Assembly (NCBI GenBank): GCA_018221285.1
Contig: JAAOYJ010000003.1
Span: forward strand, 87,030-151,029
Source of the DNA: Candidatus Pacearchaeota archaeon
Lineage (GTDB): Archaea; Nanobdellota; Nanobdellia; Pacearchaeales; GW2011-AR1
Length of the DNA stretch: 64,000 nt
Reading direction: 5' to 3'
Shown here one piece after another: positions 13,074 to 53,406 of this stretch; position 1 is the first letter of the stretch, and every line of letters begins with the position of its first letter. A model generated the notes under the pieces. The model did no database searches. It was given only the letters and a program-made list of their open reading frames with translations, and was not told where the DNA came from. Both the position numbers and the translations under genes were made by a program.

Positions 13074-13118
13074 CCACGCCCAAAATATTAATAAACTATT
13101 CTAACATTAAATTTTAAA

Positions 13119-13394: not shown

Positions 13395-13398
13395 CACT

Positions 13399-13803: not shown

Positions 13804-13814
13804 CCTAAGTGCAC
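13804..13814 (+). repeat. copy 3 of the CCTAAGTGCAC core
   Basis: Exact 11-mer, 392 nt after copy 2. Part of the dyad AAGTG-CA-CACTT. A second dyad TTAGGG-CA-CCCTAA lies at 13764-13777. Confidence 0.8.
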
Positions 13815-13838
13815 ACTTTATACATAATAAAGAGGAAA

Positions 13839-14474: not shown

Positions 14475-14475
14475 A

Positions 14476-33005: not shown

Positions 33006-34121
33006 TTATTTATTAATAGATTCTTCATAAATCCTTTCTAATTTCTTCATTCTCTTTTCAATAGAAAACTTGCCATATTCAATTTCTTTTCTGCAGTTTA
33101 GCCCCATCTTTTTCCGGAGATTTTTATCTTTTATCAGAATCTCCGTACTTTTCTCAAGTTTATCAATAGTTTTTTTAAGAGTATTGAGATTAGTTAAACC
33201 TTGCATCCCTTTTCTATCTGGCTCATTGATAACAAATCCTGTTTTTCCATCTTGCACAATTTCCCTCCTTGATTGCCCATCTACAGTAATAACTGGGATT
33301 CCAAAAGCTTGGGCCTCTATCATCGGAAATCCGTACGTATCATTATAAGAAGGGTAAAGGAATATGTCTGCCCGAGGGAATATCTCATTCATTATTTTTT
33401 CATAGGGAACTAGTGAATTAATAAATTCAATCTTTTTATTAGGAGAATATTTATCTAAAACTTCTTTAGGAATTTTAGACAAGACAAGGCCATAAACATT
33501 AGGAAACTTTTTGGTTAATCTATCCATGATTTCTACCGCATGTAAGCCTCCTTTAAAGTAAAATCTTCTACTAAAGAAAAATAAAGTAATTTTTTCATAA
33601 TTTCTCTTAATTGCTTTTTGTGCCGGCATCGCGTAATGAAGAACCTCTATTTTTTCTTTTATTTTTGGAAATTTTTCTATAAGATCTTTTTTACCCCATT
33701 CTGTCCAAGATAAGATCTTTTTACAATAATCAGAGCCTAATATCTTTTCCACTTTCTTTTTACTTTCTAAACTAGGTTTAATATTCTGAGAGACCCACAT
33801 TTGTTCGGGATACTCTAAATCACATATCCAAGGCCTTTTATTATACGACAAACAATGGGCACAGTGAATTAAATCGTATTCACTTTTACACCTTGTTAAG
33901 TGGGAATTAATCATAAATGGGAAAAAAATCTCCAGATATTTTTTGATATTTTGTTTTATAAAATTATTTATTTCGAATTTTCTATTATTAGTAATATTCC
34001 CTATGTGTTTAAGATTATTCAAATATTCCACATTTTTCGGAGCGTGCTCTAAAAGAGATTTATAATAATTTGAATCCCCATATCTCCATGGAAATTGCAT
34101 ATAAATTTTTATTTTTTTCAT
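33006..34121 (-). CDS. GT4-family (GT-B) glycosyltransferase
   Basis: C-terminal YGFPMIEAQAFGIPVIT and GKTGFV motif. Confidence 0.8.
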   Translation of the reverse strand: MKKIKIYMQFPWRYGDSNYYKSLLEHAPKNVEYLNNLKHIGNITNNRKFEINNFIKQNIKKYLEIFFPFMINSHLTRCKSEYDLIHCAHCLSYNKRPWICDLEYPEQMWVSQNIKPSLESKKKVEKILGSDYCKKILSWTEWGKKDLIEKFPKIKEKIEVLHYAMPAQKAIKRNYEKITLFFFSRRFYFKGGLHAVEIMDRLTKKFPNVYGLVLSKIPKEVLDKYSPNKKIEFINSLVPYEKIMNEIFPRADIFLYPSYNDTYGFPMIEAQAFGIPVITVDGQSRREIVQDGKTGFVINEPDRKGMQGLTNLNTLKKTIDKLEKSTEILIKDKNLRKKMGLNCRKEIEYGKFSIEKRMKKLERIYEESINK

Positions 34122-35131
34122 TCTCCAAAAATTTCCTTGAACCTTTTTAATATTTTTTTCTCATCCATATCTTTGTTAATTTTATTACCTTTAAGCCAAG
34201 GCTCTTTTAAAATTTTGGCATACTCTTTTTCATCACCATCTATCTCAATTATTCTTTCTATCAATTCTTTCGTATTTTTGAAATCATTTAAATCCAAAAA
34301 ACTCTTTTTATTAAAATCTCTATTCACCAACGGATTTCCATAATAAATTGGGATGCTATTAACAACCATCGGTTGCACAAGTTTTTCGGTCGTATACCCT
34401 GGCGATGTAAAACTTTCGAATGCTATAGTAAACTTATAATTTTTGAGAAATCTAATTTTTTCTTTGGGCCAATTGAGAGAGCTTCTCGATTCAGAACTGT
34501 CTTTATGATCTCCAATTGGAGGCATATTGTTCATACATCTTCCAGGAGAATCAACTCTTTTATATTTATTAAGTATCTTAAAAAATTCATTCCGGGAGTT
34601 TAGGTCATTCGAATAGATGAAATTACAAAATTTTGTTTTTTCCCTCAAGATTTTTTTCATAGAAATATTTTTTTTAATGAGATTTTCTGAATAGCCAAGA
34701 TAAAAATAGTAAGGGAGTCTTAAGTGTCTTGGATGCTTGAATTCTTCATCATAACAGAATGAAAAAGCCCAATCACATTTATTCATATCCGGTTTAACAT
34801 TTTCCGAAGTATAAAAGATTTTGATGAAATCTCCTTTTGGAGGAATTATCTGTCTTGCTAACCTTTTTTTCCAATATTCAGAATTTTTAAGTTTTCCCCA
34901 TAATTTTGAATTTTTTAATGTTGAAAATACTCTTGGAGAGATATTTTTCAACGCGGATGATTTTTTAGATTGTCCATAAAAACTTTCCCCAAAAACAGAG
35001 AAAAAAACATAATCGGGCTTATCACTGATTTTAATATTATAATGATTTTTTAAAAGATCTATGAAAAAGTTTTTTTTTGGATCAAAATCTGGCCAGAAAT
35101 CCCTAAAATTTATCTTAATAGTTTTTTTCAT
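34118..35131 (-). CDS. GT10-family alpha-1,3/4-fucosyltransferase
   Basis: FCNFIYSN..SRNEFF and YKFTIAFESFTSPGYTTEKLVQPMVVNSIPIYYG match the GT10 motifs (compare Helicobacter FucT KFNLCFENS..GYVTEK...IPIYWG). Confidence 0.8.
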   Translation of the reverse strand: MKKTIKINFRDFWPDFDPKKNFFIDLLKNHYNIKISDKPDYVFFSVFGESFYGQSKKSSALKNISPRVFSTLKNSKLWGKLKNSEYWKKRLARQIIPPKGDFIKIFYTSENVKPDMNKCDWAFSFCYDEEFKHPRHLRLPYYFYLGYSENLIKKNISMKKILREKTKFCNFIYSNDLNSRNEFFKILNKYKRVDSPGRCMNNMPPIGDHKDSSESRSSLNWPKEKIRFLKNYKFTIAFESFTSPGYTTEKLVQPMVVNSIPIYYGNPLVNRDFNKKSFLDLNDFKNTKELIERIIEIDGDEKEYAKILKEPWLKGNKINKDMDEKKILKRFKEIFGE

Positions 35132-38315: not shown

Positions 38316-39599
38316 ATGATATTGTATTTTGATAATTTAATTACAAACATCCCCTTAAATCCGGGAGTGTACACGAAACTAGATTCGGTTAGAGATTCTT
38401 GTAAGGCATACTCCAATAAAGATAGATATGACGTAACACTCTATACTTTGGCAAGTTATGCTGAAATTGATTGGGATGAAGTTGTTATTGTTTACGAATT
38501 TGGAGAAGATATGATTGAGAAAAAGGAAGAGTTTGAAAGATTTGTTAAGGATTTTTGGCCAAATGCACACATCTTTTACGGAAGAAGTGATAATCAGAAA
38601 AAATTTCAAAAAAGAATGAATTTCATAAATAAGCTGAATGGAGAATGGGTTTTTTATGCAGGAAATAATGATCATCCTTTTGTAGCTCCGAACAAAAAAA
38701 TTTTAAATTCTTGTTTGGATAAAGCAAAACAATTGTCTAAAAAACACAAATTCATATCAGTTGTTTATTGTCATTTCTGGGAAGCTTATCATACCTCAAA
38801 AAAAGGGTCTGCCTATAGAGAGTATATGGCGCTTAAACCAAAAATCCTCGAAGAAACTCCTGAATACTTTGTGGATTTTTTTTATGAAATTTATGGAGAC
38901 ACAATTCAAATATTCAACAAAAAAATGATAAATTATATGGTCTTCTCTGAAGATTTAGGGGAAGGCAAATTTAGAAAAATTGAAGAAATGACATGGCATG
39001 ATAAAATGAAAAGAAAGAGGGTGGATCAGATTGCAGTAGTTCCTAAAGAGGTTATTTGTGATCATTTTGATGGTTATGGCCACACCGTAAATTCGGCTTT
39101 TCCAGTTCCAGTCGAGTATTTCCCTCCACTCTTTATTCCAAAAGGATTTTTCGAGAATAACATAAAAATTCGCTATGGTTATAAGGATTACAAAGAAGGG
39201 TGGGTTAACATCAACCCCCTAATAGAAAAATATAGTTTTGAAGACGAAAAGGGAACAGATATGAAAATTTCAATTGATGAAATCCCTTTATTCTGGAAGA
39301 AAAGAATTTCAAAAATAGACATAAACCCAAATTTAAATAAGGAAGTTGTTGAAGAGAGGGTAAGGGCGATAAAAAAATTAATGAGAAATTCTCCAGAGCC
39401 GATAAAAAATCAAAGCTTTTTATTCCGTATTAAATTTAAAATTGTTGCTGGAAATTATGTACCTTATTTTATTAAAGCGAGCTTAAGAAAAAATAATCTC
39501 ATTAAAAAATTTCGGAGAAATTTTTATATGGAGGTACATAAGAAATTTAAAAGTACGCTCTATCTACGTAAGGATTTAGTTATTAATAAGTCGTTTTAA
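38316..39599 (+). CDS. hypothetical protein (orphan, 427 aa) within the glycan cluster
   Basis: Long ATG-initiated ORF, co-directional with the flanking glycan genes. No motif recognised. Confidence 0.5.
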   Translation: MILYFDNLITNIPLNPGVYTKLDSVRDSCKAYSNKDRYDVTLYTLASYAEIDWDEVVIVYEFGEDMIEKKEEFERFVKDFWPNAHIFYGRSDNQKKFQKRMNFINKLNGEWVFYAGNNDHPFVAPNKKILNSCLDKAKQLSKKHKFISVVYCHFWEAYHTSKKGSAYREYMALKPKILEETPEYFVDFFYEIYGDTIQIFNKKMINYMVFSEDLGEGKFRKIEEMTWHDKMKRKRVDQIAVVPKEVICDHFDGYGHTVNSAFPVPVEYFPPLFIPKGFFENNIKIRYGYKDYKEGWVNINPLIEKYSFEDEKGTDMKISIDEIPLFWKKRISKIDINPNLNKEVVEERVRAIKKLMRNSPEPIKNQSFLFRIKFKIVAGNYVPYFIKASLRKNNLIKKFRRNFYMEVHKKFKSTLYLRKDLVINKSF

Positions 39600-39751: not shown

Positions 39752-40492
39752 ATGAAGGCCGCAAAAAACCCTTACTTTTTAGAAGATAAAACCATGTTAA
39801 TCACTGGCTCATCCAGGGGAATCGGGGCTGCAACCGCAAGATTGGCAAAACAGTATGGTGCTGAAGTTATTCTTCATGGCAGAACAGAATCAGAGCCACT
39901 TAAATTATTGGCTAAAGAATTAGATTCAAAATATATTTTTTGTGATGCTGCTGATGAAAAAGCTGTTAAAAAAGCTGTAGGAAACTTAGAAGTGGAGGTG
40001 TTAGTAAATAATGCGGGAATAAATCCTTCCAAAACCTTTATGGATTTAACAGGAGAGGATTGGAAAAGAATATATGATGTTAATGTTTTTGGACCAGTAT
40101 ATTTTTCACAAGCAGTTATCCCTAGAATGTTAGAAAGAGGGCAAGGAAAAATAATAAATATTTCTTCTGCCAAAAGTCACAACCATGTTAGAGGTAAGCC
40201 AGCATACGCTTCTGCTAAGGCTGCTTTAAACAGACTTACTACAAGCATGGCTGAAGAATTTGCACCCCATATTTTAGTTAATGCTGTTGCGCCAGGGTTT
40301 GCTGACACAGAGATGGTTGAGAAAACACTTTCACCAGTAATTAGGGCCCAAATAGATAATATCCCTCTTAAAAGAATGGCCAGTGCAGATGAAATGGCTG
40401 AAACAGTGTTATTTTTAGCAAGCGATAAAGCTAATTACATTACAGGCCATGTTCTTTCTGTTGACGGAGGATTTAGTATTGTTAGCGGTTAA
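39752..40492 (+). CDS. classical short-chain dehydrogenase/reductase (FabG-like)
   Basis: TGSSRGIGAATA, NNAGI, S...YASAKAAL catalytic triad spacing. Confidence 0.88.
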   Translation: MKAAKNPYFLEDKTMLITGSSRGIGAATARLAKQYGAEVILHGRTESEPLKLLAKELDSKYIFCDAADEKAVKKAVGNLEVEVLVNNAGINPSKTFMDLTGEDWKRIYDVNVFGPVYFSQAVIPRMLERGQGKIINISSAKSHNHVRGKPAYASAKAALNRLTTSMAEEFAPHILVNAVAPGFADTEMVEKTLSPVIRAQIDNIPLKRMASADEMAETVLFLASDKANYITGHVLSVDGGFSIVSG

Positions 40493-40536
40493 ATAAAAAT
40501 AGATAACTATTTTAAGAATAATTTTAGATACATATT

Positions 40537-41205
40537 ATGATAAAACTTGTAATATTCGATTTAGATGATTGTTTACTTGATACCTGGGCCTCTTTTTCAA
40601 TAACAATTAGGGCGGCAATTAATGCAATGGTTGATGCAGGATTGAAAATTCATTCTTTTGACGAAGCTGTGAATAGATTGGAAGAAATTAATAATAAATC
40701 CAAAAATTGTCCAGAGGCAATAACAAGATATCTAAATGAAATCGGTGCCGATGCTATAAAATATATGGAAGTTGGTAAAAGGGCAATTTATGATTTTAAT
40801 TTTGATAATCGGATAAAGCCCAATTCTGGAGTTGTTGAAATGTTGGAAAAATTATATCCTTTGAATATTGATTTAGCGATTGTGACAAGAGGAGGGAAAG
40901 AAAGACAAATGAAAAGGATGGAAATAGCAGGAATAGATAAAACTAAATTCAAAATAATCTCTGCAGTCGCAAATTATGATAAAACAGAATCTTATCAAAG
41001 GATTATGGAAGAATTGGGCCATTCAGCCGAGAATACATTAGTTGTGGGGGATAGATATGAAACAGATTTAATTCCTGGAAAAAAATTAGGAACAAAAGTT
41101 GCTTGGGTTCCCAAAGGAAGGGGAAATATAAATCCTCCAAAAAAAGAAGATGTGGATTATGTAATCGAAGATTTTAGAGAAATTTTAGAGATAGTTGAAG
41201 ATTAA
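40537..41205 (+). CDS. HAD-superfamily phosphatase (capped subfamily I-like)
   Basis: Motif I VIFDLDDCLLDT, motif II VTRG, motif IV VGDRYETD. Confidence 0.75.
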   Translation: MIKLVIFDLDDCLLDTWASFSITIRAAINAMVDAGLKIHSFDEAVNRLEEINNKSKNCPEAITRYLNEIGADAIKYMEVGKRAIYDFNFDNRIKPNSGVVEMLEKLYPLNIDLAIVTRGGKERQMKRMEIAGIDKTKFKIISAVANYDKTESYQRIMEELGHSAENTLVVGDRYETDLIPGKKLGTKVAWVPKGRGNINPPKKEDVDYVIEDFREILEIVED

Positions 41206-41214
41206 TAAATTTTA

Positions 41215-41916
41215 TCAATCTCCTTGAGAACCTTCTCCATCAAAATAATTCTTTTGAGCATGTTCATACGAATTCGGGGTTCCAGTATCAAACCATGTAA
41301 ATGTTTTTGATTTTAATCCAATTTCTTTTAATTTTTGAATTCCATTTGAAACCTGTATCTCTCCATCAATAACTTCTTTGTTCTCTTCTAAAGCATTCCA
41401 AAAAGATTCATAATCATAAACCCCAATCAACCCAATATAAGCATGTTTATTGGCTGTTTGGACCTTGTCATCTATCCTTATAACATCCCCCCCCTCAATT
41501 TTAGCAGAGCAAAACCTTGAAGTATCTTCGACTTCGGCAACACCTAACCAATTTGAATCTGGCTCAGGAATTTTCTCTCTGACTAATGTATCTCCTGCAA
41601 TGTGTATAAAAGGACATTCTAAATGTGGTTTACAACAATAAAGAGAGTATCCTGGACCAGAACCTTCTCCTTGAAAAGGCTCCACTTCGACAAAAGTTAA
41701 TTTTCTATTAGGGTATGAAGTTTCCAAGTATTTTATTAAAGATTCTTTTTTATATCCTACCGCAATTACAATCTCAACATCCTCAGGAAAGTATTCTATA
41801 ATGTGACAGATTGTTGGCTTTCCTTGGATTGGAATTAAAACTTTATTGAGATGTTCGCTAAACCCTCCCATTCTACTTCCAACACCTGCAGCAAGAATCG
41901 CAACCTTATATCTCAT
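41215..41916 (-). CDS. sugar-phosphate nucleotidyltransferase (stand-alone)
   Basis: VAILAAGVGSRMGG signature. Paralogous over its whole length to the N-terminal half of 42336-43946. ATG at 41916 avoids overlap with the upstream ORF. Confidence 0.75.
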   Translation of the reverse strand: MRYKVAILAAGVGSRMGGFSEHLNKVLIPIQGKPTICHIIEYFPEDVEIVIAVGYKKESLIKYLETSYPNRKLTFVEVEPFQGEGSGPGYSLYCCKPHLECPFIHIAGDTLVREKIPEPDSNWLGVAEVEDTSRFCSAKIEGGDVIRIDDKVQTANKHAYIGLIGVYDYESFWNALEENKEVIDGEIQVSNGIQKLKEIGLKSKTFTWFDTGTPNSYEHAQKNYFDGEGSQGD

Positions 41917-41924
41917 ATAATTGA

Positions 41925-42242
41925 TTAACCCCCTTCTTTTAAAAACCTTCTCTTCCAATCAAGAATTGTTTTTCTTGAAACTTTTATATTATAATTTTGA
42001 CTGATGTTATAAGTAATCTGGCTTAAACTGTAGCCTTTTTCAAATAACCTAAGAGCGGTTTTGATAACTAATGGAGGATGTCTAAATTTTTTAAAGCCAT
42101 CATCAAGAGTAAAACGCCTACAACATTTTTTACATAAATAGATTTGTTTCAAGGTGGTTTTGTTTTTTCTCAATTGAATTGGCTTAAAATCCTTGCTTGA
42201 GCAATGTATACATTTGATTTTAATTTCATTATCAATGAGCAT
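41925..42242 (-). CDS. zinc-ribbon + HTH protein (IS1 InsA-like fold), probable DNA-binding regulator
   Basis: CIHCSS...CKKCCRRF zinc ribbon, followed by the HTH-like ALRLFEKGYSLSQITYNISQNYNIKVSRKTILDW. Confidence 0.5.
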   Translation of the reverse strand: MLIDNEIKIKCIHCSSKDFKPIQLRKNKTTLKQIYLCKKCCRRFTLDDGFKKFRHPPLVIKTALRLFEKGYSLSQITYNISQNYNIKVSRKTILDWKRRFLKEGG

Positions 42243-42335
42243 TAAGATACCACAAACTAAACTTATATAAAATTATCGATAATTAAACAGCAGATTTATA
42301 TAGAATACATGATTTTACTTAAATTAAGGTGAAAA

Positions 42336-43946
42336 ATGGAATTTAAGGCGTGTATTCTTGCTGCAGGAAAAAATGATAGATTAAAATTTGCTGAAGATTT
42401 CCCTGTTGCTATCCTCCCTATTGGAACTGCTTCTTCTATAACCAAAATAATTGAAAAATTCCCATTAAATATAGAGATTGTTATGGCGGTGGGTTATAAG
42501 AGCAGACTTATAAAAGATTTTATTAAAATTGCACATGCAAACAGAAAGATTACTTTTGTTGATATTGGGGATTATTCTACAGCAGGTTCAGGCCCTGGAA
42601 AGTCCCTTCTTTTATGTAAGGATCATTTAAAATGTCCTTTTATCTTTACGTCTGCAGATACAATTGTTTCTGGTCCTGTCCCAGAACCATCAAAAAATTG
42701 GTTAGGAGTATCACATGTTTCTGACACTACAAATTATTGTATGGCTGATGTTGAAAACAATTATGTAGTAAAGTTCCATGATAAAGTTCCAATGACAACT
42801 TTAATTCAAACATGTAAAAACTATAATACTATTCTTAATAACGCTTTTATTGGAATGGCAGGAATTTATGATTATAAGATTTTTTTGGATACTTTAGAAA
42901 GTAATCCTGATTTAATCGAAAAGGAATTACAGGTATCAAATGGATTGTCAGGATTAATCGAGAGAAAAATAGAAGTACTTCCTTTTTTTAATTGGTTTGA
43001 TATAGGAACTGAAGCAGGGTATGGCTTAGCAAACCGTTTTTTCAATAAGAACCATATAATTGATAAACCAGACGAATTTATTTATTTTGAAAATGGAAAA
43101 GTAATTAAGTATTTTAGGAATCCAAAAATTATTCGTGAAAGAATTCTAAGGTCTCAAAAGCTTGAAGGGATTGTTCCACCTATAGTTGATATTACTGAAA
43201 ATTTTTATTCTTATAATTTCATCAAAGGCAAGATTTTGCCCAAAATAAATGATGTTGCTGTTTTTAAGGAACTCCTAAACTCTTGCAAAGAAGTAATCTG
43301 GAGGGAAAAAAGTTTAGGCCAAGAAAAAGAAAAATTTAAAGAGCTGTGTAAAAAATTTTACAAAGACAAAACTCTTAAAAGGGTGGGGATGTTTTTTTCA
43401 AAGAGTGGGATAAAAGACAAGGAAGAAATTATCAATGGAGAAAAAACAATGAAAGTTGGAGAAATGCTTTCTTTAATTGATTGGGACAAACTCTCAGAAG
43501 GTATTCCAGTAAACTTTCATGGAGATTTTCAACCAGAAAATATTCTTATCTGTGATAAAGGATTTCAATTAATAGATTGGAGACATAACTTTGCAGGGAA
43601 TATCGACTATGGAGATGTTTACTATGACTTTGCAAAATTACACCATGCTTTAATTGTTACCCATGAGGTGATTAGAAACAATCAATTTGAAATAAAGATT
43701 AATAATGATGTCATAAATTACGATTTTTTTATTAAAAGCAACTTAGCAGAATATAAAGAGATTTTTGAAAGGTTCATAGTCGAAAAAGGTTATGATCTTG
43801 ATAAACTAAAAATCTTAAGTGCCCTGACTTTTTTAAATATTGCAGCACTCCATCACACTCCTTATGATAATTTTCTTTATTATCTTGGAAAACATAAGCT
43901 GTTTAATGAACTCGAGAACAATAATACTTATAAATTAAAAAGATGA
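42336..43946 (+). CDS. fusion protein: nucleotidyltransferase-like N-domain + APH/choline-kinase-like phosphotransferase C-domain
   Basis: N-half aligns with 41215-41916, but the signature is AAGKNDRL instead of GxGSR. C-half has the kinase catalytic loop VNFHGDFQPENILI and LIDWRH. Confidence 0.75.
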   Translation: MEFKACILAAGKNDRLKFAEDFPVAILPIGTASSITKIIEKFPLNIEIVMAVGYKSRLIKDFIKIAHANRKITFVDIGDYSTAGSGPGKSLLLCKDHLKCPFIFTSADTIVSGPVPEPSKNWLGVSHVSDTTNYCMADVENNYVVKFHDKVPMTTLIQTCKNYNTILNNAFIGMAGIYDYKIFLDTLESNPDLIEKELQVSNGLSGLIERKIEVLPFFNWFDIGTEAGYGLANRFFNKNHIIDKPDEFIYFENGKVIKYFRNPKIIRERILRSQKLEGIVPPIVDITENFYSYNFIKGKILPKINDVAVFKELLNSCKEVIWREKSLGQEKEKFKELCKKFYKDKTLKRVGMFFSKSGIKDKEEIINGEKTMKVGEMLSLIDWDKLSEGIPVNFHGDFQPENILICDKGFQLIDWRHNFAGNIDYGDVYYDFAKLHHALIVTHEVIRNNQFEIKINNDVINYDFFIKSNLAEYKEIFERFIVEKGYDLDKLKILSALTFLNIAALHHTPYDNFLYYLGKHKLFNELENNNTYKLKR

Positions 43947-43961
43947 AGAAACTATATTAAA

Positions 43962-44756
43962 ATGACAACAAATCTGATAGACAAAACAGATAGATACATT
44001 TTTGAAAAAATAAAAAGAACGGAAAATTTTAGAGGAAAGAATGAAATGGCTTCTAAATTGTCAACAACTTTTGTTCATGAAGGGAATATTAATTTATATC
44101 TACAAGTAGCTGGTTCGGAGATTCATAAGAGAATTAAGACAGGAGATGGTTTTATAATCGCTCCAGGTACAACTTATCGTATTGATAGTTCTGGAGGGCT
44201 TGTGGCATACACTGTTTCATCCGAAGTTCAACCTGGTTCGCCCATAATTGAAATTATGGAAACTGGAAATAATCGGAAGGAAATTGAATTAGGGGGTTAC
44301 AGAATCATAGAAGATCCAAAGAGAGTTGATAAACCATGGGGACATGAGTTGTGGATTTCTTGGTTTAGAGATCATCATGTTATGAAACAAATAGGGATGA
44401 AGCCTGAAAAACAATCTAGTCTCCAATTCCATAGAGAAAAACTTGAAACAAATTATTTACATGAAGGATCGGCCGAAGTAATTGATGGCTACAAGTTAGA
44501 CTCTCAAGCCTCAGAAGAAGAGGTTCAAAAATCATCAAAAGGGGTTGATTTTAATAAATATAAACAAAGTATGGGCCCAGGAGATTTTTGGACATCTCAT
44601 CCTGGAGTAGTCCATAGAGTTATTTCAGGACCTAAGGGATATTTGGCATATGAAGTTTCTACCTCAGAACTTGACGATGTTATAAGATTACAAGACGATT
44701 CTGGAAGAGGATCTGGAAGAATAAATTCTGAACATTTAAAGGAGGAAGAAAAATGA
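43962..44756 (+). CDS. cupin-domain protein, type II phosphomannose-isomerase-like
   Basis: DKPWGHELWI motif followed by beta-rich QFHREK...HRV cupin His ligands. Confidence 0.6.
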   Translation: MTTNLIDKTDRYIFEKIKRTENFRGKNEMASKLSTTFVHEGNINLYLQVAGSEIHKRIKTGDGFIIAPGTTYRIDSSGGLVAYTVSSEVQPGSPIIEIMETGNNRKEIELGGYRIIEDPKRVDKPWGHELWISWFRDHHVMKQIGMKPEKQSSLQFHREKLETNYLHEGSAEVIDGYKLDSQASEEEVQKSSKGVDFNKYKQSMGPGDFWTSHPGVVHRVISGPKGYLAYEVSTSELDDVIRLQDDSGRGSGRINSEHLKEEEK

Positions 44757-45418
44757 AGCGCGGTGAAACAAGAGATCTAGTTGAACTTTATCTTAATGAG
44801 CAGATAGAAGTGAATAAACAAATCTCTAGAGATAAAATTGTTAAGATTGCTGATTTGACATGGGAAACTTATTTAGGAAATGGAAGCGTCTTTGTTTTCG
44901 CAAATGGGGGTGGAGGAGCTTATGCAGGAAATCTTGCTTGCGATTTTGCGAACCATCCTTTTGTATCAGATGATAAATCTAGGCCAATGGACCTGGGTGT
45001 TAGAAGATTAAAAGCCTTTGATTTAACTACTTCTGCAGAAAATATGACCGGAATAATGAATGATCTTGGGCCAGATTATATTTTTTCTCAACAATTATTA
45101 AACGCAGGAGTTCGTCAAGGAGATTTAGTTTATGGGTTTTCTGGAAGTGGAAATTCTCCAAATGTATTGGAAGCATTTAAAGTAGCAAGGGAGAATGGGG
45201 CCAAAACGATTTCAATGACCAGGGGTGATGGGGGAAAAGTTAAGGCTTTATCAGATATTTGTCTAGTTGTTCCAGGAACTTCAAAATTCCCTGGGCAGAT
45301 AGGAGGCAATGACAATAATATGCATTTTGAAGACGCATGTTCATATGTGACCCACATAGTCACGGGAATCCTGAGAAAAAGAGTGAATGATACATACGCA
45401 CTAGAAAATGATAAATAA
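44753..45418 (+). CDS. gmhA: SIS-domain sedoheptulose-7-phosphate isomerase (GmhA-like)
   Basis: VFANGGGGAYAGNLACDF and GFSGSGNSPNVLEAFKVARENGAKTISMT match the GmhA motifs. ATGA overlap with the upstream gene. Confidence 0.72.
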   Translation: MKRGETRDLVELYLNEQIEVNKQISRDKIVKIADLTWETYLGNGSVFVFANGGGGAYAGNLACDFANHPFVSDDKSRPMDLGVRRLKAFDLTTSAENMTGIMNDLGPDYIFSQQLLNAGVRQGDLVYGFSGSGNSPNVLEAFKVARENGAKTISMTRGDGGKVKALSDICLVVPGTSKFPGQIGGNDNNMHFEDACSYVTHIVTGILRKRVNDTYALENDK

Positions 45419-45441
45419 ATACCTTGTTGAAAAATTATAAA

Positions 45442-46260
45442 ATGAAAACATATCTCGAAAAACAAGCCAATGAAATAAGAAGAAGAACAATTACCTCAAT
45501 ATATGATGCTCAATCAGGACATCCAGGACCTTCTTTTTCTTGGGCAGATATTGCATCAACACTTTTTTTTGAAGTAATGAATCTTGATGGTCCAGAAAGA
45601 GATAGGTTTATTTTATCAAAAGGTCACGGAGTTCCCACACTCTATGCCGCACTTTCTTTAAGAGGAGACTTGCCTGAAGAATATCTTAGAACATTAAGAG
45701 AGATTGATAGTCCTTTACAAGGGCACCCAGTAAAAGGAACCTTAGATTTAGTAGACGCAACCACCGGATCCTTAGGACAGGGTTTATCTGTAGGTCTTGG
45801 ATATGACTTAACGAATAAACTAAAAGGAAATGGCGCTAATGTTTATGTTGTTTTAGGAGATGGAGAATGTCAAGAAGGACAAGTTTGGGAGGCTGCAATG
45901 TCTGCATCAAAATTTGCAAGAGAAGGAAGATCATCAGGACTTATTGCCACAATTGATGCTAATGGATATCAATGTGAAAAGATCAGCGAAGTAATGCCTT
46001 CTTTAGAACCCCTTGGAGATAAATGGAGGAGTTTCGGGTGGGATGTGCAGGAAGTGGATGGGCACAATATTAACGCTCTTTTAGGAGCATATGAAAATGC
46101 CAAAAAGCAAAAATCAAAACCCTCAATGATTATTGCAAGAACAATAAAAGGTAAAGGATTTTCTTTAATGGAGCAAGAACCTCTGAATTGGCATTTTAGG
46201 GTTTTAACAGAAGGGGAACATGCCCAAGCAATGAAGGAGCTAGGAGGTTCAAATGTCTAA
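45442..46260 (+). CDS. transketolase, N-terminal (TPP-binding) subunit
   Basis: GHPGPSFSWADI, ILSKGHG, GSLGQGLS, GDGECQEG. ATG at 45442 (the ORF-track start 45424 is TTG). Confidence 0.88.
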   Translation: MKTYLEKQANEIRRRTITSIYDAQSGHPGPSFSWADIASTLFFEVMNLDGPERDRFILSKGHGVPTLYAALSLRGDLPEEYLRTLREIDSPLQGHPVKGTLDLVDATTGSLGQGLSVGLGYDLTNKLKGNGANVYVVLGDGECQEGQVWEAAMSASKFAREGRSSGLIATIDANGYQCEKISEVMPSLEPLGDKWRSFGWDVQEVDGHNINALLGAYENAKKQKSKPSMIIARTIKGKGFSLMEQEPLNWHFRVLTEGEHAQAMKELGGSNV

Positions 46261-47191
46261 AATTGCTCAAAGAACTGCTTTTGGAGAATCACTTATCGAA
46301 GCGGGGGAAAAGTATAATGATCTCCTTGTTGTAGACGCAGACCTGGGGGGCGCCACAAAAGTTTCCACGTTCGCACAAAAGTTTCCTGAAAGATCTTTTA
46401 ATGTGGGGATTGCAGAGCAAAATGGAATAAGTGTTGCTACGGGAATGGCCTTTAACGGGTATAGGCCTTTTATGGCGAGTTTTGGGGTTTTTTCTGCATC
46501 AAGATCAGACCAAATAAGAATCGCGGCTTATAGTGAAGCGCCAATAGTTATCGTTGGAACACACATAGGGCTCACAGGAAAAGATGGGGCCACCCATCAA
46601 GCACTAGAAGATATAGGCCTTTTATCTTCTCTTCCAAACATGAATATTTTCCAACCAACCGATTGTGTTGAAACAAGAGAAATTGTAAAGTATCTTGCTG
46701 GTGGAGAAGGAAGAGATATGTTAGCATATCTTAGATTATCAAGACATCCTCAAAGAGACGTTTTCGATGAAGATCATAAATTTATGTTTAACAAGGCCGC
46801 AACATTAAATTCTACTAAGAATCCACAAGGAGTTGTATTTACAACAGGAGATATTGCTTTGAAAGTATTGGATGCTACAACAGCCCTTTCTAAAAAAAAT
46901 TATCCTCTTGATGTATTAAGTTTCTCAACATTAAAGCCGATTGATAAAGAGGCGATTATTAATTACGCTGAAAAAGGAATGCCAATAATAACTGTTGAGG
47001 AGCATAATCCCACGGGAGGATTAGGGTCAAGAGTCTGTGAGGTTGTTGCTGAAAGAGGGCTTCCATCAAAAGTCTTGCGTTTGGGAGTAGATGGTTTTGG
47101 GGGAAGCGGAGATCCTGCAGATTTATATAGAAAGTTTGGTCTTGACGCACAAGGAATTGCAGACTCTGTCGAGAATTTTATTTATGATTAA
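46253..47191 (+). CDS. transketolase, C-terminal (pyrimidine-binding) subunit
   Basis: FNVGIAEQN, GATHQALEDI, a C-terminal domain. Overlaps the N-subunit stop. Confidence 0.88.
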   Translation: MSKIAQRTAFGESLIEAGEKYNDLLVVDADLGGATKVSTFAQKFPERSFNVGIAEQNGISVATGMAFNGYRPFMASFGVFSASRSDQIRIAAYSEAPIVIVGTHIGLTGKDGATHQALEDIGLLSSLPNMNIFQPTDCVETREIVKYLAGGEGRDMLAYLRLSRHPQRDVFDEDHKFMFNKAATLNSTKNPQGVVFTTGDIALKVLDATTALSKKNYPLDVLSFSTLKPIDKEAIINYAEKGMPIITVEEHNPTGGLGSRVCEVVAERGLPSKVLRLGVDGFGGSGDPADLYRKFGLDAQGIADSVENFIYD

Positions 47192-47192: not shown

Positions 47193-49025
47193 TTACCTTA
47201 AAATTCCCCAATATTCAAACCATTTGTAAAGCAAAAATAATCTAATCTTACAATTTTGATATACTATTGAGTTATTCTTAAATACCTCTTCATTATAAAA
47301 TTCCAACCATTTTTTATCAATAATCTTATTTCTATACAAGACATCTAAACCTTTTTTTATCTCTTTCACATACTTTTTTTTATTAATCCATTCATCAATC
47401 GGAGGGCTAAATCCAGCCTTTTTTCTTTTTAATATTGTTTTTGGAAGCGTATCTTTTAATATTTCTTTCATTAATTTTTTTGTTTCAAACTTAGATGCCT
47501 TTAATTCAGCAGGAATTTTAAAAGAATATTCCATCAATCTATAATCTAAAAATGGCGATCTTACTTCTAATGAATTTGCCATTGAAGCCCGATCTGTTTT
47601 TAATAAATAGTTCTCAGACATAGTATTAAATTTTAAATCAAAAAGTCTAATGGCTTCACTTAAATTTCCTCCTGAATCTTTTAAGCAATCAATGAATCTA
47701 GGTTCAACGAATTTTTTATATTCTTTTGATTTATAGATATCCCCTCTTATTTCAGAATAAATCTTCTCTAAAGGAATTAAACTTAATCTGAGTCCTTCTT
47801 TCACATCCCTTAACTTATGTAAATTTACATTTTTCATTAATCTATAAAATATTAAACGAATTATTTTAGGAAACTTTCTCATAAAGGTGAGTTGAGAAGT
47901 TTTTTGATATTTTGGATACCCCCCAAATATCTCATCTCCTCCATCCCCACTTAATGAAACTTTTATTTTTTTAGAAGCATTTTTACAAAGTAAAAATGTT
48001 GGAAACATAGAATAATCTGCAAAAGGTTCATCATAGTAATAAAAAATATTCTTTAATTCTTCTTCAAATACTTTTTCATCAAAATAATCATGATTGTTTT
48101 TTAGTTTAAACAAATCATTGATAATCTTAATATATTTTGTTTCGTCATTCCCGTCCTTGAACCCAATGGAGTATGTTATAAGATCTTTTTTCACAAATTT
48201 ATTCATCTCAGCCACTATTGCTGAACTGTCTAATCCGCCACTTAGGAAAGCCCCAACAGGAACATCTGAAATTAATCTCAATCTTATTGCATCCTCTATT
48301 AATCTCTTCCCCTCTTCAATTAACTCTTTTTTATTATAAATTGGGTTATATTTTGGCCATTCGTAATAATAAAACTTATCTATTTTTCTGCCCTTTAAAT
48401 CAAAAATTAAATTTTGCCTCTGTTCTAATTTGTATACTTTTTGGTATATAGAGTATGGTGAAGGAATAAACCCTAGGGAAAGGTACAGATTAACTGCCTC
48501 TTTATTCAGATTTAATTTTAATCCATGTTTTAATATCCCTTTAATCTCCGAACTGAAAATAAATTTATTGTTGTCCCAAAAATAATAAAGGGGTTTTTTC
48601 CCGATTCTGTCTCTGCTTAAAAATAATATCTTTTTACTTAAATCAAAAATACAGAAGGCCCACATTCCATTGAATTTTTTTACACAGTCAAAACCCCATT
48701 CTAGATAACTTGCAAGAATAACCTCTGTATCTGATTTTGAATTGAATTTATATCCTAGAGAAACCAAGTCTTTTTTAATTTCCTGAAAATTATAAATCTC
48801 TCCATTAAAAACAATCGTCGCTTTTTTCCCTTTATGGGAATACTCCATTGGTTGGTGTCCTTTCTCTGATAAATCTAGAATCGCCAGTCGCCTGTGCCCC
48901 AGTGAAATCTTGTTTTTTGAATCATAAAATTCTCCCTCATCGTCAGGCCCCCTGTGTTTGAGAGAATCATTCATCCCACTTAGCACCTTCTTGTCAATGA
49001 AATTGAATCCGTTTATTCCACACAT
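47193..49025 (-). CDS. asnB: asparagine synthase (glutamine-hydrolysing)-family amidotransferase
   Basis: N-terminal MCGI nucleophile, SGGLDSS PP-loop. 610 aa. Confidence 0.9.
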   Translation of the reverse strand: MCGINGFNFIDKKVLSGMNDSLKHRGPDDEGEFYDSKNKISLGHRRLAILDLSEKGHQPMEYSHKGKKATIVFNGEIYNFQEIKKDLVSLGYKFNSKSDTEVILASYLEWGFDCVKKFNGMWAFCIFDLSKKILFLSRDRIGKKPLYYFWDNNKFIFSSEIKGILKHGLKLNLNKEAVNLYLSLGFIPSPYSIYQKVYKLEQRQNLIFDLKGRKIDKFYYYEWPKYNPIYNKKELIEEGKRLIEDAIRLRLISDVPVGAFLSGGLDSSAIVAEMNKFVKKDLITYSIGFKDGNDETKYIKIINDLFKLKNNHDYFDEKVFEEELKNIFYYYDEPFADYSMFPTFLLCKNASKKIKVSLSGDGGDEIFGGYPKYQKTSQLTFMRKFPKIIRLIFYRLMKNVNLHKLRDVKEGLRLSLIPLEKIYSEIRGDIYKSKEYKKFVEPRFIDCLKDSGGNLSEAIRLFDLKFNTMSENYLLKTDRASMANSLEVRSPFLDYRLMEYSFKIPAELKASKFETKKLMKEILKDTLPKTILKRKKAGFSPPIDEWINKKKYVKEIKKGLDVLYRNKIIDKKWLEFYNEEVFKNNSIVYQNCKIRLFLLYKWFEYWGILR

Positions 49026-52485: not shown

Positions 52486-53406
52486 ATGTCTCCTGCATTA
52501 GAAGTTACAACAAGAATTGGGTGCAAAAATATGTGTTCTTACTGCCCACAAAAGACCATTATAAAAAAATATTCAGATTCTGGAGGGGATTTTTTGATGA
52601 AATTTGAAACCTTCAAAAAATGTCTATCTAAAGTTCCAAAGAATGTTCAGATTGATTTTTCTGGGATGGCAGAACCGTGGCTTAATCCGGATTGCTCTGA
52701 AATGGTCCTTCACACCCATAAATCAGGGTACAATCTATCCATTTTTACTACTCTTGTTGGGATGGAAAAATCCGATTTAAAAAAAATAAAGGACATCCCT
52801 TTCCAACAATTTATTGTCCATCTTCCTGATGCAGAAGAAAAAACAAAAATTAAAGTTGACAAAAAATATCTTTCTGTTTTGGAATATCTTTGCGAAAATA
52901 AAGTAAAAAATTGCGAGTTTCATTTTTTTAGTACAATTGAGCCTCAGATAATAAGTGTCTTGAAAAACTATCGGCTTAAAATAAAAGACATAAGCTCTAA
53001 TTTGGTTACAAGAGCAGGAAATCTAGGTTCTGGAAAACTGAAAAAGAAAAAGTCCATTTTTTGTAGTTCAGCTCCGAGAAATTTAAATCACAATGTTCTT
53101 CTTCCTAATGGGGATGTTATCCTTTGTTGCATGGATTATGGGCTTATACATAAGTTTGGGAATCTTCTAAAACAAGATTATGGATCATTGTTCAAAAGTA
53201 AGGAGCATTTAAGGATAAAGGAAGCTATGAAAAAAGGTGGAATTGGAACAATCTGTATGAATTGCGAAAAAGCTATTGAAAAAGGATCTATACCTCATTT
53301 AATCCATCTTTGCCACAATAATAAAATTCTTTCCAAATTTTCCAAAGTCGAATTTATAAAAAAGACCGCAAAGAAAATCCTTAAAAAAAATAATTCCAAG
53401 ATATAG
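52486..53406 (+). CDS. radical SAM protein with C-terminal Cys-rich (SPASM/twitch-like) region
   Basis: CKNMCSYC (CX3CX2C) near the N-terminus. CCMDYG ... CMNC near the C-terminus. Confidence 0.75.
   Translation: MSPALEVTTRIGCKNMCSYCPQKTIIKKYSDSGGDFLMKFETFKKCLSKVPKNVQIDFSGMAEPWLNPDCSEMVLHTHKSGYNLSIFTTLVGMEKSDLKKIKDIPFQQFIVHLPDAEEKTKIKVDKKYLSVLEYLCENKVKNCEFHFFSTIEPQIISVLKNYRLKIKDISSNLVTRAGNLGSGKLKKKKSIFCSSAPRNLNHNVLLPNGDVILCCMDYGLIHKFGNLLKQDYGSLFKSKEHLRIKEAMKKGGIGTICMNCEKAIEKGSIPHLIHLCHNNKILSKFSKVEFIKKTAKKILKKNNSKI

What the first reader, a model, noticed from the sequence alone, without database searches (positions are those of the whole stretch)
39752..47191. Candidate non-canonical NDP-heptose biosynthesis cassette: split transketolase + GmhA + cupin + APH-type kinase fused to a nucleotidyltransferase + HAD phosphatase
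What the sequence shows: a co-directional, overlapping gene string at 42336-47191 encodes five products. They are (i) a nucleotidyltransferase-like domain fused to an APH/choline-kinase-type phosphotransferase (HGDFQPENILI, IDW); (ii) a PMI-like cupin; (iii) a SIS protein with GmhA motifs; (iv, v) the N- and C-terminal halves of transketolase. Just upstream lie an SDR, a HAD phosphatase and a second stand-alone nucleotidyltransferase. Established: NDP-glycero-manno-heptose synthesis runs sedoheptulose-7-P -> (GmhA) heptose-7-P -> kinase -> heptose-1,7-bisP -> (HAD phosphatase GmhB) heptose-1-P -> nucleotidyltransferase. The known kinases are pfkB-type (HldE/HldA) or GHMP-type (HddA). Inference: transketolase supplies S7P locally, and an unrelated APH-fold kinase, fused to its nucleotidyltransferase, replaces HldE/HddA, a non-orthologous displacement. 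The whole set sits inside an N-glycan/surface-glycan cluster of an archaeon. Caveats: the HAD is a capped type rather than GmhB-type. The kinase/NT fusion could instead be a LicA/LicC-like phosphocholine or other sugar-1-P activation module.
Basis: inference. Interest (0 to 1): 0.7.

Follow-up and report, generated by a model that had tools for sequence, protein, structure and literature searches.

The report
Archaeal heptose-type sugar activation cassette
An archaeal surface-glycan cluster carries a conserved, uncharacterised gene set that most likely builds a seven-carbon sugar from central metabolites and links it to a nucleotide, using a kinase type not known for that job; the same kinase module is widespread in small-celled archaea and bacteria.

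Summary
At 42336-47191 five co-directional genes encode an NT-like/APH-fold kinase fusion, a PMI-like bicupin, a GmhA-like SIS protein and a split transketolase. An SDR, a HAD-IA phosphatase and a stand-alone NT lie upstream. The setting is an archaeal N-glycosylation cluster.

- The fusion's NT domain has lost its catalytic signature. The stand-alone NT paralog keeps it, so it is the likely working enzyme.
- The fusion family is not heptose-specific. Its constant partners are a PMI-like cupin, a HAD phosphatase and a reductase.
- The carbon-skeleton supplier is either SIS plus transketolase (18 of 83 loci, this window included) or a GatZ-like enzyme (57 of 83). The two almost never co-occur.
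- Transketolase, bicupin and SIS also form a module in actinomycetes, without the fusion.
- One close relative also carries HddA/HddC/GmhB-like genes, so the product is probably not plain glycero-manno-heptose.

The fold search confirms the kinase fold but not its substrate. I found no paper describing the cassette.

Best reading (confidence about 0.45): an NDP-heptose-type pathway with the known isomerase, kinase, phosphatase and NT logic, run by non-homologous enzymes. The cupin and reductase steps remain unexplained.

The parts
38316..39599 (+). Orphan 427-aa protein (U427). It is a candidate partner, possibly the transferase that uses the product.
   Evidence: No Pfam, NCBIfam or PDB sequence match. 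Homologs lie within 8 kb of the fusion gene in 18 of 83 loci, of both cassette types. Its function is inferred only.
39752..40492 (+). Classical FabG-like SDR, the cassette's reductase.
   Evidence: adh_short_C2 at 8e-58. Orthologs (E 1e-80 to 1e-115) sit inside cassettes of relatives. A reductase (SDR or shikimate-DH-like) is present in 18 of 18 type-A loci.
40537..41205 (+). HAD-IA (capped) phosphatase, the cassette's phosphatase.
   Evidence: HAD_2 at 1e-20; the best NCBIfam model is TIGR02253, and no GmhB model matches. An ortholog lies next to TK-C in L004. NT+HAD-IA fusion proteins occur in L037 and L044. A HAD (KdsC-like or HAD-IA) is present in 17 of 18 type-A loci.
41215..41958 (-). 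Stand-alone sugar-phosphate nucleotidyltransferase, the probable active NT. The real start is likely the ATG at 41916.
   Evidence: It is a paralog of the fusion's N-domain (42% identity) with the canonical LAAGVGSRMG and NKVLIP motifs. A stand-alone NT co-occurs with a degenerate fusion NT domain, Fisher p = 2e-11.
41925..42242 (-). Small Zn-ribbon/HTH-like protein, a putative regulator.
   Evidence: Weak matches to IS1/IS6-type N-terminal Zn-finger/HTH models. It sits directly upstream of, and divergent from, the fusion gene in every locus of the window's clade (6 loci).
42263..42303 (.). Conserved divergent promoter/operator: two TATA-like boxes flanking TTATCGATAATTAAACA (42273-42289).
   Evidence: The intergenic block is nearly invariant across six loci whose proteins are only 62-71% identical. 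The motif occurs once in the window (0.01 expected) and only at this position in relatives.
42336..43946 (+). Fusion protein: a degenerate NT-like domain (aa 1 to about 235) plus an active-looking APH/ELK-fold kinase (aa about 240-536).
   Evidence: AF2 model pLDDT 91.8. The N-domain matches RmlA, GalU, MurU and IPCT. The kinase-only model (pLDDT 94) matches APH(2''), choline kinase, maltokinase and FN3K at E 1e-5 to 1e-3. K258, H395-G-D397, N402 and D414 are invariant. The NT P-loop and Lys are lost.
43962..44756 (+). Bicupin. The C-terminal half is a type II PMI-like isomerase cupin.
   Evidence: The window protein hits PF07883 and PF01050 only below threshold. The short homolog L038:12604-12987 passes PF01050 and matches the C-terminus of GMP_PMI. 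It lies next to the fusion gene in 78 of 83 loci.
44753..45418 (+). GmhA-like SIS isomerase of a distinct subfamily.
   Evidence: The top 13 PDB hits are all GmhA. TIGR00441 scores 77 bits against a cut-off of 209. Alignments A4 and A6 show the SGSGNS loop, ND-G, H201 (= His180) and D64 (= Glu65), plus two subfamily inserts. It is fused to the kinase protein in P0058/L001.
45424..46260 (+). Transketolase N-terminal (ThDP-binding) half.
   Evidence: Transketolase_N at 3e-41; NF004559 at 262 bits. A GDG...N ThDP motif is visible in the translation.
46253..47191 (+). Transketolase pyrimidine-binding and C-terminal half.
   Evidence: Transket_pyr at 9e-35, Transketolase_C at 7e-20, NF004559 at 238 bits.

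Best explanation
This is a dedicated 'build-and-activate' cassette. It makes a nucleotide-activated higher-carbon sugar, most likely a heptose derived from sedoheptulose-7-P, for the archaeon's surface or N-glycan.

Proposed steps:
1. The split transketolase makes S7P locally. The enzyme identity is shown; this role is inferred.
2. The GmhA-like SIS enzyme isomerises S7P to an aldoheptose-7-P. The family and catalytic residues are shown; the substrate is inferred.
3. The APH-fold kinase domain of the 536-aa protein phosphorylates the sugar, probably at O-1 (inferred).
4. The HAD-IA phosphatase removes the terminal phosphate (inferred).
5. The stand-alone NT at 41215-41958 forms the NDP-sugar. 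The fusion's own NT-like domain does not, because it has lost its catalytic signature. The motif loss is shown; the division of labour is inferred.

The PMI-like bicupin and the SDR are obligatory members. They presumably change the stereochemistry or redox state, so the product is probably an epimer or a reduced derivative rather than plain D-glycero-D-manno-heptose.

The Zn-ribbon protein and the conserved operator between two TATA boxes probably regulate the operon.

The logic copies GmhA/HldE/GmhB and LmbR/N/P/K/O. The kinase, phosphatase and extra isomerase come from unrelated families.
For: - Domain identities.
- Conservation: all seven functions are kept in 18 type-A loci from at least six phyla (cupin 18, reductase 18, HAD 17 of 18).
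- Gene fusions link the members: SIS+NT+APH, KdsC-HAD+bicupin, KdsC+shikimate-DH-like and NT+HAD-IA.
- GmhA family placement: E. coli GmhA scores 52 bits against the window SIS and 60 bits against a GmhA from a canonical DPANN GmhB-GmhA-HddA-HddC operon. Both proteins share Asp65 and Glu172.
- The kinase catalytic residues are invariant. The motif after the catalytic Asp differs by cassette type: QPEN, QFDN or HFEN.
- A degenerate NT domain goes with a stand-alone NT (17 of 20 against 3 of 58).
- A GT9 family gene (PF01075) follows the cassette in L001.
- A precedent exists for chain extension, SIS isomerase, kinase, phosphatase and NT in lincomycin octose synthesis (PMC4351081). HygP turns S7P into a different heptose-7-P epimer (PMC10948575).
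Against: - No substrate has been tested. The fold search does not separate sugar kinases from choline or antibiotic kinases.
- A plain heptose route needs neither the PMI-like cupin nor the reductase, yet both are always present.
- Most relatives of the fusion work with a GatZ-like enzyme and have no SIS or transketolase (57 of 65), so the kinase family is not intrinsically a heptose kinase.
- The window's SDR, NT, HAD and U427 have close homologs in non-SIS/TK (GatZ-type) loci.
- HddA/HddC/GmhB-like genes co-occur with the cassette in L008, and HddA/HddC-like genes in L012. The APH route is therefore not a simple replacement.
- The SIS subfamily carries two conserved inserts near the active-site segments. 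It scores below the gmhA cut-off, although the DPANN control does too.
- GT9 was found in only 1 of 18 type-A loci.
Confidence: 0.45

Rival explanations
1. NDP-alditol pathway. The transketolase product is isomerised to an aldose phosphate and reduced to a heptitol phosphate. The phosphate is moved to the other end by the kinase and the HAD. The NT then makes an NDP-heptitol for a teichoic-acid-like or alditol-phosphate decoration.
For: - A reductase is obligatory, and it comes from interchangeable families: SDR, shikimate-DH-like, AKR and NAD_binding_2.
- The best PDB sequence hit of the NT domain is an inositol-1-P cytidylyltransferase.
- In actinomycetes the TK-bicupin-SIS module sits beside OtsA/TreT-like glycosyltransferases and HADs, the layout used for glycosyl-polyol solutes.
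- An NT plus reductase makes CDP-glucitol in C. jejuni (PMC10918830, listed).
Against: - Known CDP-alditol routes need neither a kinase nor a phosphatase.
- The 'phosphate switching' step is ad hoc.
- The NT fold matches sugar-1-P NTs (RmlA, GalU) at least as well as polyol-P NTs.
Confidence: 0.17
2. Salvage-type order. The HAD first frees the sugar made by transketolase and the isomerases. The APH kinase then acts as an anomeric kinase on the free sugar, and the NT follows directly, as in AmgK/MurU, NahK or FKP. The product is still an NDP-heptose-type sugar.
For: - Kinase-NT fusions usually catalyse consecutive steps.
- Anomeric sugar kinases such as mycobacterial maltokinase have this fold. 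That NahK and AmgK do too is my recollection.
- The KdsC+shikimate-DH-like fusion suggests that dephosphorylation and reduction are neighbouring steps.
Against: - HldE is a kinase-NT fusion whose two steps are not consecutive.
- NT+HAD fusions fit the bisphosphate order equally well.
- No data discriminate between the two orders.
Confidence: 0.2
3. A different chain length. The PMI-like cupin supplies a hexose-6-P acceptor, transketolase extends it to an octulose-8-P, SIS makes the octose-8-P, and the product is an NDP-octose, analogous to lincomycin's GDP-octose.
For: - It gives both isomerases a role.
- LmbN is an isomerase acting on octulose-8-P within a chain-extension, isomerase, kinase, phosphatase and NT pathway (PMC4351081).
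- TK-bicupin-SIS behaves as a unit in actinomycete clusters.
Against: - There is no direct evidence.
- From my own knowledge, transketolase acceptors of the manno (2S) configuration are poor.
- The reductase is still unexplained.
Confidence: 0.08
4. LicA/LicC-like module that activates phosphocholine or another small alcohol. SIS and transketolase are unrelated neighbours.
For: - Choline and ethanolamine kinases are among the fold hits.
- Some databases label homologs 'choline kinase'.
Against: - PF01633 does not match.
- The Mg-binding segment reads IDWRH; the IDFEY form typical of choline kinases is from my own knowledge.
- No LicB or LicD family appeared among the window neighbours scanned.
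- The kinase is fused to SIS or GatZ-like sugar enzymes and always sits beside a PMI-like cupin.
Confidence: 0.03
5. The transketolase is the organism's housekeeping enzyme and only happens to lie beside a sugar-activation operon.
For: - Split transketolases of this kind are ordinary in archaea (my own knowledge).
- The two halves together reach the transketolase equivalog score.
Against: TKN-TKC adjacency to this SIS and bicupin subfamily is conserved from DPANN to Proteobacteria and to actinomycetes.
Confidence: 0.04

Closest known systems
NDP-glycero-manno-heptose pathways (GmhA, HldE or HddA, GmhB, HldE-C or HddC)
   Same: The logic is the same: ketose-7-P isomerase, then kinase, then HAD phosphatase, then nucleotidyltransferase. 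The SIS protein's nearest characterised family is GmhA. The kinase is fused to an NT-type domain, as in HldE.
   Different: - The kinase has an APH/ELK fold, not pfkB or GHMP.
- The HAD is IA-type (KdsC-like in relatives), not GmhB.
- The cassette adds a dedicated transketolase, a PMI-like bicupin and a reductase.
- The fused NT domain is inactive here.
- The cassette co-exists with HddA/HddC/GmhB-like genes in one relative.
Lincomycin GDP-octose pathway (LmbR transaldolase, LmbN SIS isomerase, LmbP kinase, LmbK phosphatase, LmbO NT; PMC4351081)
   Same: A dedicated chain-building enzyme is encoded together with an SIS isomerase, a kinase, a phosphatase and an NT. The same architecture yields a rare higher-carbon NDP-sugar.
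   Different: The chain-building enzyme is a transketolase rather than a transaldolase. From my own recollection, LmbP is a GHMP-type kinase, whereas this kinase has the APH fold. LmbR/N/P/K/O include no cupin and no early reductase. That pathway serves a secondary metabolite, not a surface glycan.
Kinase-plus-NT activation pairs (LicA/LicC and their fusion, AmgK/MurU, NahK, FKP)
   Same: A small-molecule kinase is coupled, often by fusion, to an RmlA/GalU-fold NT. MurU is among the structural hits.
   Different: None of these pairs comes with transketolase, SIS, a PMI-cupin, a HAD and a reductase. Sequence similarity is limited to the superfamily level. The NT half is degenerate here.
Bifunctional type II PMI/GDP-mannose pyrophosphorylase (AlgA, WbpW, ManC)
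   Same: A PMI-like cupin is genetically coupled to an NT. The cupin keeps the Q-x-H...E...H pattern and the C-terminal DD-x-x-R-x-x-D-x-x-GR pattern.
   Different: The cupin is a separate protein and is a bicupin in this window. A kinase plus phosphatase would stand where the phosphomannomutase step is. The substrate is unknown.
Actinomycete TKN-TKC-bicupin-SIS module (Streptomyces L084, Micromonospora L086, Catenulispora L088)
   Same: It has orthologous transketolase halves, bicupin (34-40% identity) and SIS (45-49% identity) in the same tight arrangement, with a HAD and a reductase nearby.
   Different: It has no NT-APH fusion. Its neighbours are OtsA/TreT-like glycosyltransferases, an MFS transporter, PhyH and NRPS-type genes. 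It is itself uncharacterised.

Membership tests
Canonical NDP-heptose pathway | GmhA ortholog (sedoheptulose-7-P isomerase) | tested here: inconclusive
   GmhA is the closest family. The score of 77 bits is below the TIGR00441 cut-off of 209. A GmhA from a canonical DPANN operon also fails, at 103 bits. The catalytic His180 equivalent, the phosphate loop, and Asp and Glu at positions 65 and 172 are shared with that control. Two subfamily-specific inserts are present.
Canonical NDP-heptose pathway | pfkB (HldE/HldA) or GHMP (HddA) heptose-7-P kinase | tested here: not met
   No such domain appears among the window ORFs of 150 aa or more that I scanned. The only kinase in the cassette has the APH fold.
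Canonical NDP-heptose pathway | GmhB-type HAD-IIIA 7-phosphatase | tested here: not met
   The window HAD's best match is TIGR02253 (HAD-IA), and no GmhB model matches. A true GmhB in L008 scores 153-171 bits on the GmhB models.
Canonical NDP-heptose pathway | HddC or HldE-C type heptose-1-P nucleotidyltransferase | tested here: not met
   The stand-alone NT scores 31.7 bits on HddC NF049965 (cut-off 300). It belongs to the same superfamily only.
Canonical NDP-heptose pathway | The product is an NDP-heptose | not testable with these tools
   This needs enzyme assays or glycan analysis.
APH / eukaryotic-like kinase superfamily | Bilobal fold, beta3 Lys, HxDxxxxN catalytic loop, Mg-binding Asp | tested here: met
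   K258, H395-G-D397-x4-N402 and D414 are invariant in 30 homologs. Foldseek matches APH(2''), choline kinase, maltokinase and FN3K at probability 1.0.
LicA/LicC phosphocholine activation | Choline-kinase family signature (PF01633) | tested here: not met
   PF01633 does not match.
LicA/LicC phosphocholine activation | LicB/LicD partner genes | tested here: not met
   No LicB or LicD family was found among the neighbours scanned.
Sugar-1-P nucleotidyltransferase (RmlA/GalU fold) | G-x-G-(S/T)-R P-loop and catalytic Lys | tested here: not met
   This row concerns the fusion's N-domain, which reads AAGKNDRL and FPVAILP, although the fold is kept. The stand-alone NT at 41215-41958 meets the feature, with LAAGVGSRMG and NKVLIP.
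Transketolase (split form) | N, pyrimidine-binding and C domains with a ThDP motif; equivalog-level score | tested here: met
   PF00456, PF02779 and PF02780 all match. NF004559 scores 262 + 238 bits against a cut-off of 488 for the full-length enzyme.
Type II phosphomannose isomerase cupin | PF01050 domain | tested here: inconclusive
   The window protein scores 17 bits, below the cut-off of 23.6. The short ortholog scores 31.4 bits and matches the GMP_PMI C-terminus. The metal-ligand pattern is visible in the sequence. Activity is untested.
Lincomycin-type octose pathway | Transaldolase chain extension with a separate C8 kinase (LmbP) | tested here: not met
   The chain-building enzyme here is a transketolase and the kinase has the APH fold. 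Only the pathway logic and the SIS isomerase type are shared.

The most novel reading that the evidence does not exclude
The NT-APH fusion, PMI-like cupin, HAD phosphatase and reductase form a previously unrecognised modular route to nucleotide sugars. An anomeric kinase plus phosphatase pair replaces the phosphomutase or HldE-type step. The route is fed by interchangeable skeleton modules: transketolase plus a GmhA-like SIS for C7, or a GatZ-like aldolase/epimerase for C6. It would produce rare heptose or hexose epimers that decorate the surfaces of DPANN archaea, CPR bacteria, SAR11, SAR86 and others. In several lineages the fused NT has become a pseudoenzyme domain backed up by a stand-alone paralog.
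Probability: 0.3. Interest if true: 0.8.

Novelty: new variant of a known kind. Interest (0 to 1): 0.6.

Why it matters
- If confirmed, this adds a third, unrelated kinase family (APH fold) to NDP-heptose-type biosynthesis, alongside pfkB and GHMP.
- It would define a modular sugar-activation cassette found in at least 263 species-level genomes, many of them uncultured DPANN archaea, CPR bacteria and marine lineages.
- It gives concrete candidate enzymes for rare C7 sugars, which are useful for glycan chemistry.
- NDP-heptoses are innate-immune agonists (PMC11461863). Homology searches built on HldE-type enzymes would miss producers that use this route.
- The inactivated NT domain with a stand-alone back-up is a clear, testable case of pseudoenzyme evolution.
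- The actinomycete TK-bicupin-SIS module points to an unknown sugar in natural-product clusters.

Tried and rejected
- **Kinase substrate from structure.** Sequence search of PDB with the fusion gave nothing useful. Fold search with the full model was dominated by the NT domain. The kinase-only model gave only distant hits to mixed APH, choline kinase, maltokinase and FN3K structures, so no substrate can be assigned.
- **Literature.** Searches combining heptose, archaea and nucleotidyltransferase; transketolase, GmhA and cupin; GatZ and shikimate dehydrogenase; and anomeric kinase found no description of this cassette.
- **Annotated collections.** Plasmids gave only distant NT hits. Phages gave one unannotated marine 'virus' contig carrying the GatZ-type cassette.
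- **The gmhA cut-off as a membership test.** I rejected it as decisive, because a GmhA from a canonical DPANN heptose operon also scores below it.
- **GT9 heptosyltransferase as a marker of heptose use.** It was found in only 1 of 18 type-A loci.
- **'HddA/HddC next to the cassette with no other GmhA' as proof that SIS is GmhA.** This holds only for L008. L012 has a second GmhA-like ORF 9 kb away.
- **Methionine-salvage or inositol-catabolism readings** (APH-type kinase, cupin, aldolase and HAD). I rejected these because the cupin is PMI-type, an NT is always present, and every context is a glycan cluster.
- **U427.** No domain or structure match was found.

Full report
**1. Observation**

The ORF map matches the finding.
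- Fusion, 42336-43946 (+, 536 aa).
- Cupin, 43962-44756.
- SIS, 44753-45418, with a 4-nt overlap.
- TK-N, 45424-46260.
- TK-pyr/C, 46253-47191, with an 8-nt overlap.
- Upstream: SDR 39752-40492 (+), HAD 40537-41205 (+), and the stand-alone NT 41215-41958, which is on the minus strand.

Pfam and NCBIfam confirm adh_short, HAD_2 (best model TIGR02253, a HAD-IA family), NTP_transf_3 for the stand-alone NT, APH (weak, catalytic core only), SIS_2 and the transketolase domains. The two transketolase halves score 262 and 238 bits on the NF004559 model.

The setting is an archaeal N-glycosylation and surface-glycan cluster.
- It holds AglB/STT3, a GT4 family enzyme, a flippase, a GT10 fucosyltransferase, GDP-mannose dehydratases and many glycosyltransferases and methyltransferases.
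- The window also encodes PolD, Cdc6/Orc1 and archaeal ribosomal proteins.
- The closest relatives are Pacearchaeota and Woesearchaeota MAGs.

**2. The fusion protein**

Its family is large: 881 hits among the 8000 candidates scored, and 263 species-level genomes. Carriers include DPANN archaea, CPR bacteria, Omnitrophota, SAR11, SAR86 and other Proteobacteria.

AF2 models are confident, with pLDDT 91.8 for the whole protein and 94.2 for the kinase domain alone.
- The N-domain matches sugar-1-P nucleotidyltransferases such as RmlA, GalU, MurU, PntC and IPCT.
- The C-domain matches the APH/ELK fold only distantly: APH(2''), choline and ethanolamine kinases, maltokinase, FN3K and macrolide phosphotransferases, at E 7e-6 to 1e-3.

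The fold is therefore confirmed, but the substrate class is not resolved. The kinase catalytic residues K258, H395-G-D397, N402 and D414 are invariant.

**3. The fused NT domain is degenerate here**

In the window and its close relatives the NT signature is lost.
- The P-loop reads AAGKNDRL, AAGKNEKV or AAGENKHV in place of AAG-x-G-S/T-R.
- The Lys of the N-K-A-L-L-P segment is replaced; the window has FPVAILP.
- The stand-alone NT, 42% identical, keeps LAAGVGSRMG and NKVLIP.

Across 78 scorable loci, a degenerate fusion NT goes with a stand-alone NT paralog in 17 of 20 cases. An intact fusion NT goes with one in only 3 of 58 (Fisher p = 2e-11; the loci are not phylogenetically independent). 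Of the three exceptions, L011 at least lies close to a contig end.

So the picture of a kinase fused to its working nucleotidyltransferase is not right for this window. The minus-strand NT is the probable enzyme, and the fused domain is probably structural or regulatory.

**4. Gene-neighbourhood analysis**

I analysed 83 loci.

The constant partners of the fusion are:
- a type II PMI-like cupin (78 of 83);
- a HAD phosphatase, KdsC-like or HAD-IA (72 of 83);
- a reductase, shikimate-DH-like or SDR (62 of 83).

The remaining member comes in two near-exclusive forms (Fisher p = 8e-11).
- SIS plus split transketolase: 18 loci, 'type A', which includes the window.
- A GatZ/KbaZ-like class II aldolase-family protein: 57 of the other 65 loci.

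In type A, cupin, reductase and HAD are present in 18, 18 and 17 of 18 loci.

Gene fusions tie every member together:
- fusion+SIS (P0058/L001);
- fusion+GatZ-like (P0101);
- KdsC-HAD+bicupin;
- KdsC+shikimate-DH-like (L087);
- NT+HAD-IA (L037 and L044).

It belongs to the pathway even though it is not GmhB-type.

The motif after the catalytic Asp tracks cassette type: QPEN in type A, QFDN or HFEN in the others. That is consistent with type-specific substrates.

The window's SDR, NT, HAD and U427 have close homologs in non-SIS/TK (GatZ-type) DPANN loci. This suggests that the products of the two types are chemically similar.

**5. The SIS protein**

GmhA is its nearest characterised family. 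The top 13 PDB hits are all GmhA, followed by HxlB-type and DiaA proteins.

It scores below the gmhA equivalog cut-off (77 against 209 bits). A GmhA inside a canonical GmhB-GmhA-HddA-HddC operon of a Micrarchaeon (L034) also fails, at 103 bits. E. coli GmhA scores the two proteins similarly, at 52 and 60 bits.

Alignment to E. coli GmhA (sequence verified against 2i22) shows the following:
- the phosphate loop, the ND-G segment and the His180 equivalent are conserved;
- Glu65 is Asp and Gln172 is Glu, as in the L034 control.

The subfamily is set apart by two conserved inserts, HPFVSDDKS-P and FPGQ-G-NDNNFH.

It is a small, tight family of 166 hits. It includes actinomycete members 45-49% identical to the archaeal protein.

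**6. A separable TK-bicupin-SIS module**

In Streptomyces, Micromonospora and Catenulispora the four genes TKN, TKC, bicupin and SIS occur together without the NT-APH fusion. Their neighbours are OtsA/TreT-like glycosyltransferases, a HAD, a reductase (AKR or NAD_binding_2) and, in Micromonospora, a distant stand-alone APH.

So transketolase, bicupin, SIS and a reductase appear to form a sugar-phosphate-making unit. The kinase, HAD and NT would form the activation unit.

**7. Relation to canonical heptose genes**

In L008, a Woesearchaeote whose fusion is 62% identical to the window's, four genes lie about 8 kb from the cassette: an HddC-CBS-HddA-like fusion, a GmhB that passes TIGR00213, a 4,6-dehydratase-like SDR and two small cupins. 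No other GmhA-like gene is in range.

This evidence cuts both ways. The cassette SIS may supply heptose-7-P, which supports the heptose reading. However, the APH route is then a second branch rather than a replacement.

L012 also has adjacent HddA/HddC-like genes. It has another GmhA-like ORF 9 kb away.

**8. Interpretation**

Known precedents share the logic of chain builder, SIS isomerase, kinase, phosphatase and NT.
- GmhA/HldE/GmhB for heptose.
- LmbR/LmbN/LmbP/LmbK/LmbO for lincomycin's GDP-octose (PMC4351081).
- HygP shows that an isomerase acting on S7P can yield a different heptose-7-P epimer (PMC10948575).

The most economical reading is an NDP-heptose-type pathway run by non-homologous enzymes, with the bicupin and reductase altering the sugar. 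I give this 0.45.

The rivals that remain open are:
- an NDP-alditol product;
- a salvage-type step order;
- an octose product.

A LicA/LicC reading and a coincidental housekeeping transketolase are unlikely. I found no paper describing the cassette.

**9. Regulation**

The 93-bp gap between the Zn-ribbon gene and the fusion gene holds a block at 42263-42303. The block is nearly invariant across six loci whose proteins are only 62-71% identical. It consists of two TATA-like boxes flanking TTATCGATAATTAAACA. The motif is unique in the window and occurs only at this position in relatives. It is probably a divergent promoter with an operator for the Zn-ribbon protein. This is an inference.

**10. 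Verdict**

- Novelty: a new variant of a known kind of pathway.
- Interest: 0.6.

Noticed in passing
window 42263-42303: A nearly invariant intergenic block, made of two TATA-like boxes around TTATCGATAATTAAACA, lies between the Zn-ribbon gene and the fusion gene. It is conserved in six loci whose proteins have diverged to 62-71% identity. It is probably a divergent promoter plus operator.
   Followed up: partly
window 41925-42242 (-): A 105-aa Zn-ribbon/HTH-like protein resembles the N-termini of IS1/IS6 transposases. It always lies divergent from the fusion gene in the window's clade and is a candidate regulator.
   Followed up: partly
window 38316-39599 (+): A 427-aa protein has no Pfam, NCBIfam or PDB match. 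Homologs lie near the fusion gene in 18 of 83 loci of both cassette types. It may be a new transferase family.
   Followed up: partly
L084:8176-11433, L086:8167-11424, L088:8186-11472: Actinomycetes (Streptomyces, Micromonospora, Catenulispora) carry the same TKN-TKC-bicupin-SIS module. Its neighbours are OtsA/TreT-like glycosyltransferases, a HAD, reductases and, in Micromonospora, NRPS-type genes. The sugar this module makes is unknown.
   Followed up: partly
L008:1-4008: A Woesearchaeote relative has an HddC-CBS-HddA-like fusion, a GmhB, a 4,6-dehydratase-like SDR and two small cupins about 8 kb from the cassette. This looks like a canonical GDP-(deoxy)heptose branch with no GmhA of its own nearby.
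   Followed up: partly
L089 (MH319741.1) 8655-11483: A contig deposited as 'Marine virus AG-345-E15', from a single-cell amplification, carries cupin, fusion and GatZ-like genes. It is either a virus-borne glycan cassette or a misassigned cellular contig.
   Followed up: partly
window 1401-6287 (-): The PolD large subunit DP2 is interrupted by an intein with a LAGLIDADG homing-endonuclease domain.
   Followed up: no
window 23004-24077 (-) and 28555-29628 (-): Two full-length GDP-mannose 4,6-dehydratase paralogs lie 4.5 kb apart, near a GT10 fucosyltransferase-like gene at 34118-35131.
   Followed up: no
window 10000-15246: A low-GC stretch (0.257 at 10-12 kb) holds an HTH protein, a second HAD (13809-14474) and a serine recombinase (14467-15246). 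It may be an integrated element.
   Followed up: no
L006:10001-10190: The fusion ortholog in this Woesearchaeote appears to have an in-frame stop shortly after the N-terminus, so the ORF restarts at 10187. This could be a pseudogene, a sequencing error or recoding.
   Followed up: no
L007:12425-13747 and L006:12591-13730: The SIS gene is a tandem SIS-SIS duplication (440 and 379 aa) in two close relatives.
   Followed up: no
window 47193-49025 (-) and 52486-53406 (+): An asparagine-synthase-like amidotransferase lies directly after the cassette, and a radical-SAM/SPASM protein sits within the glycan cluster. They may modify the glycan.
   Followed up: no
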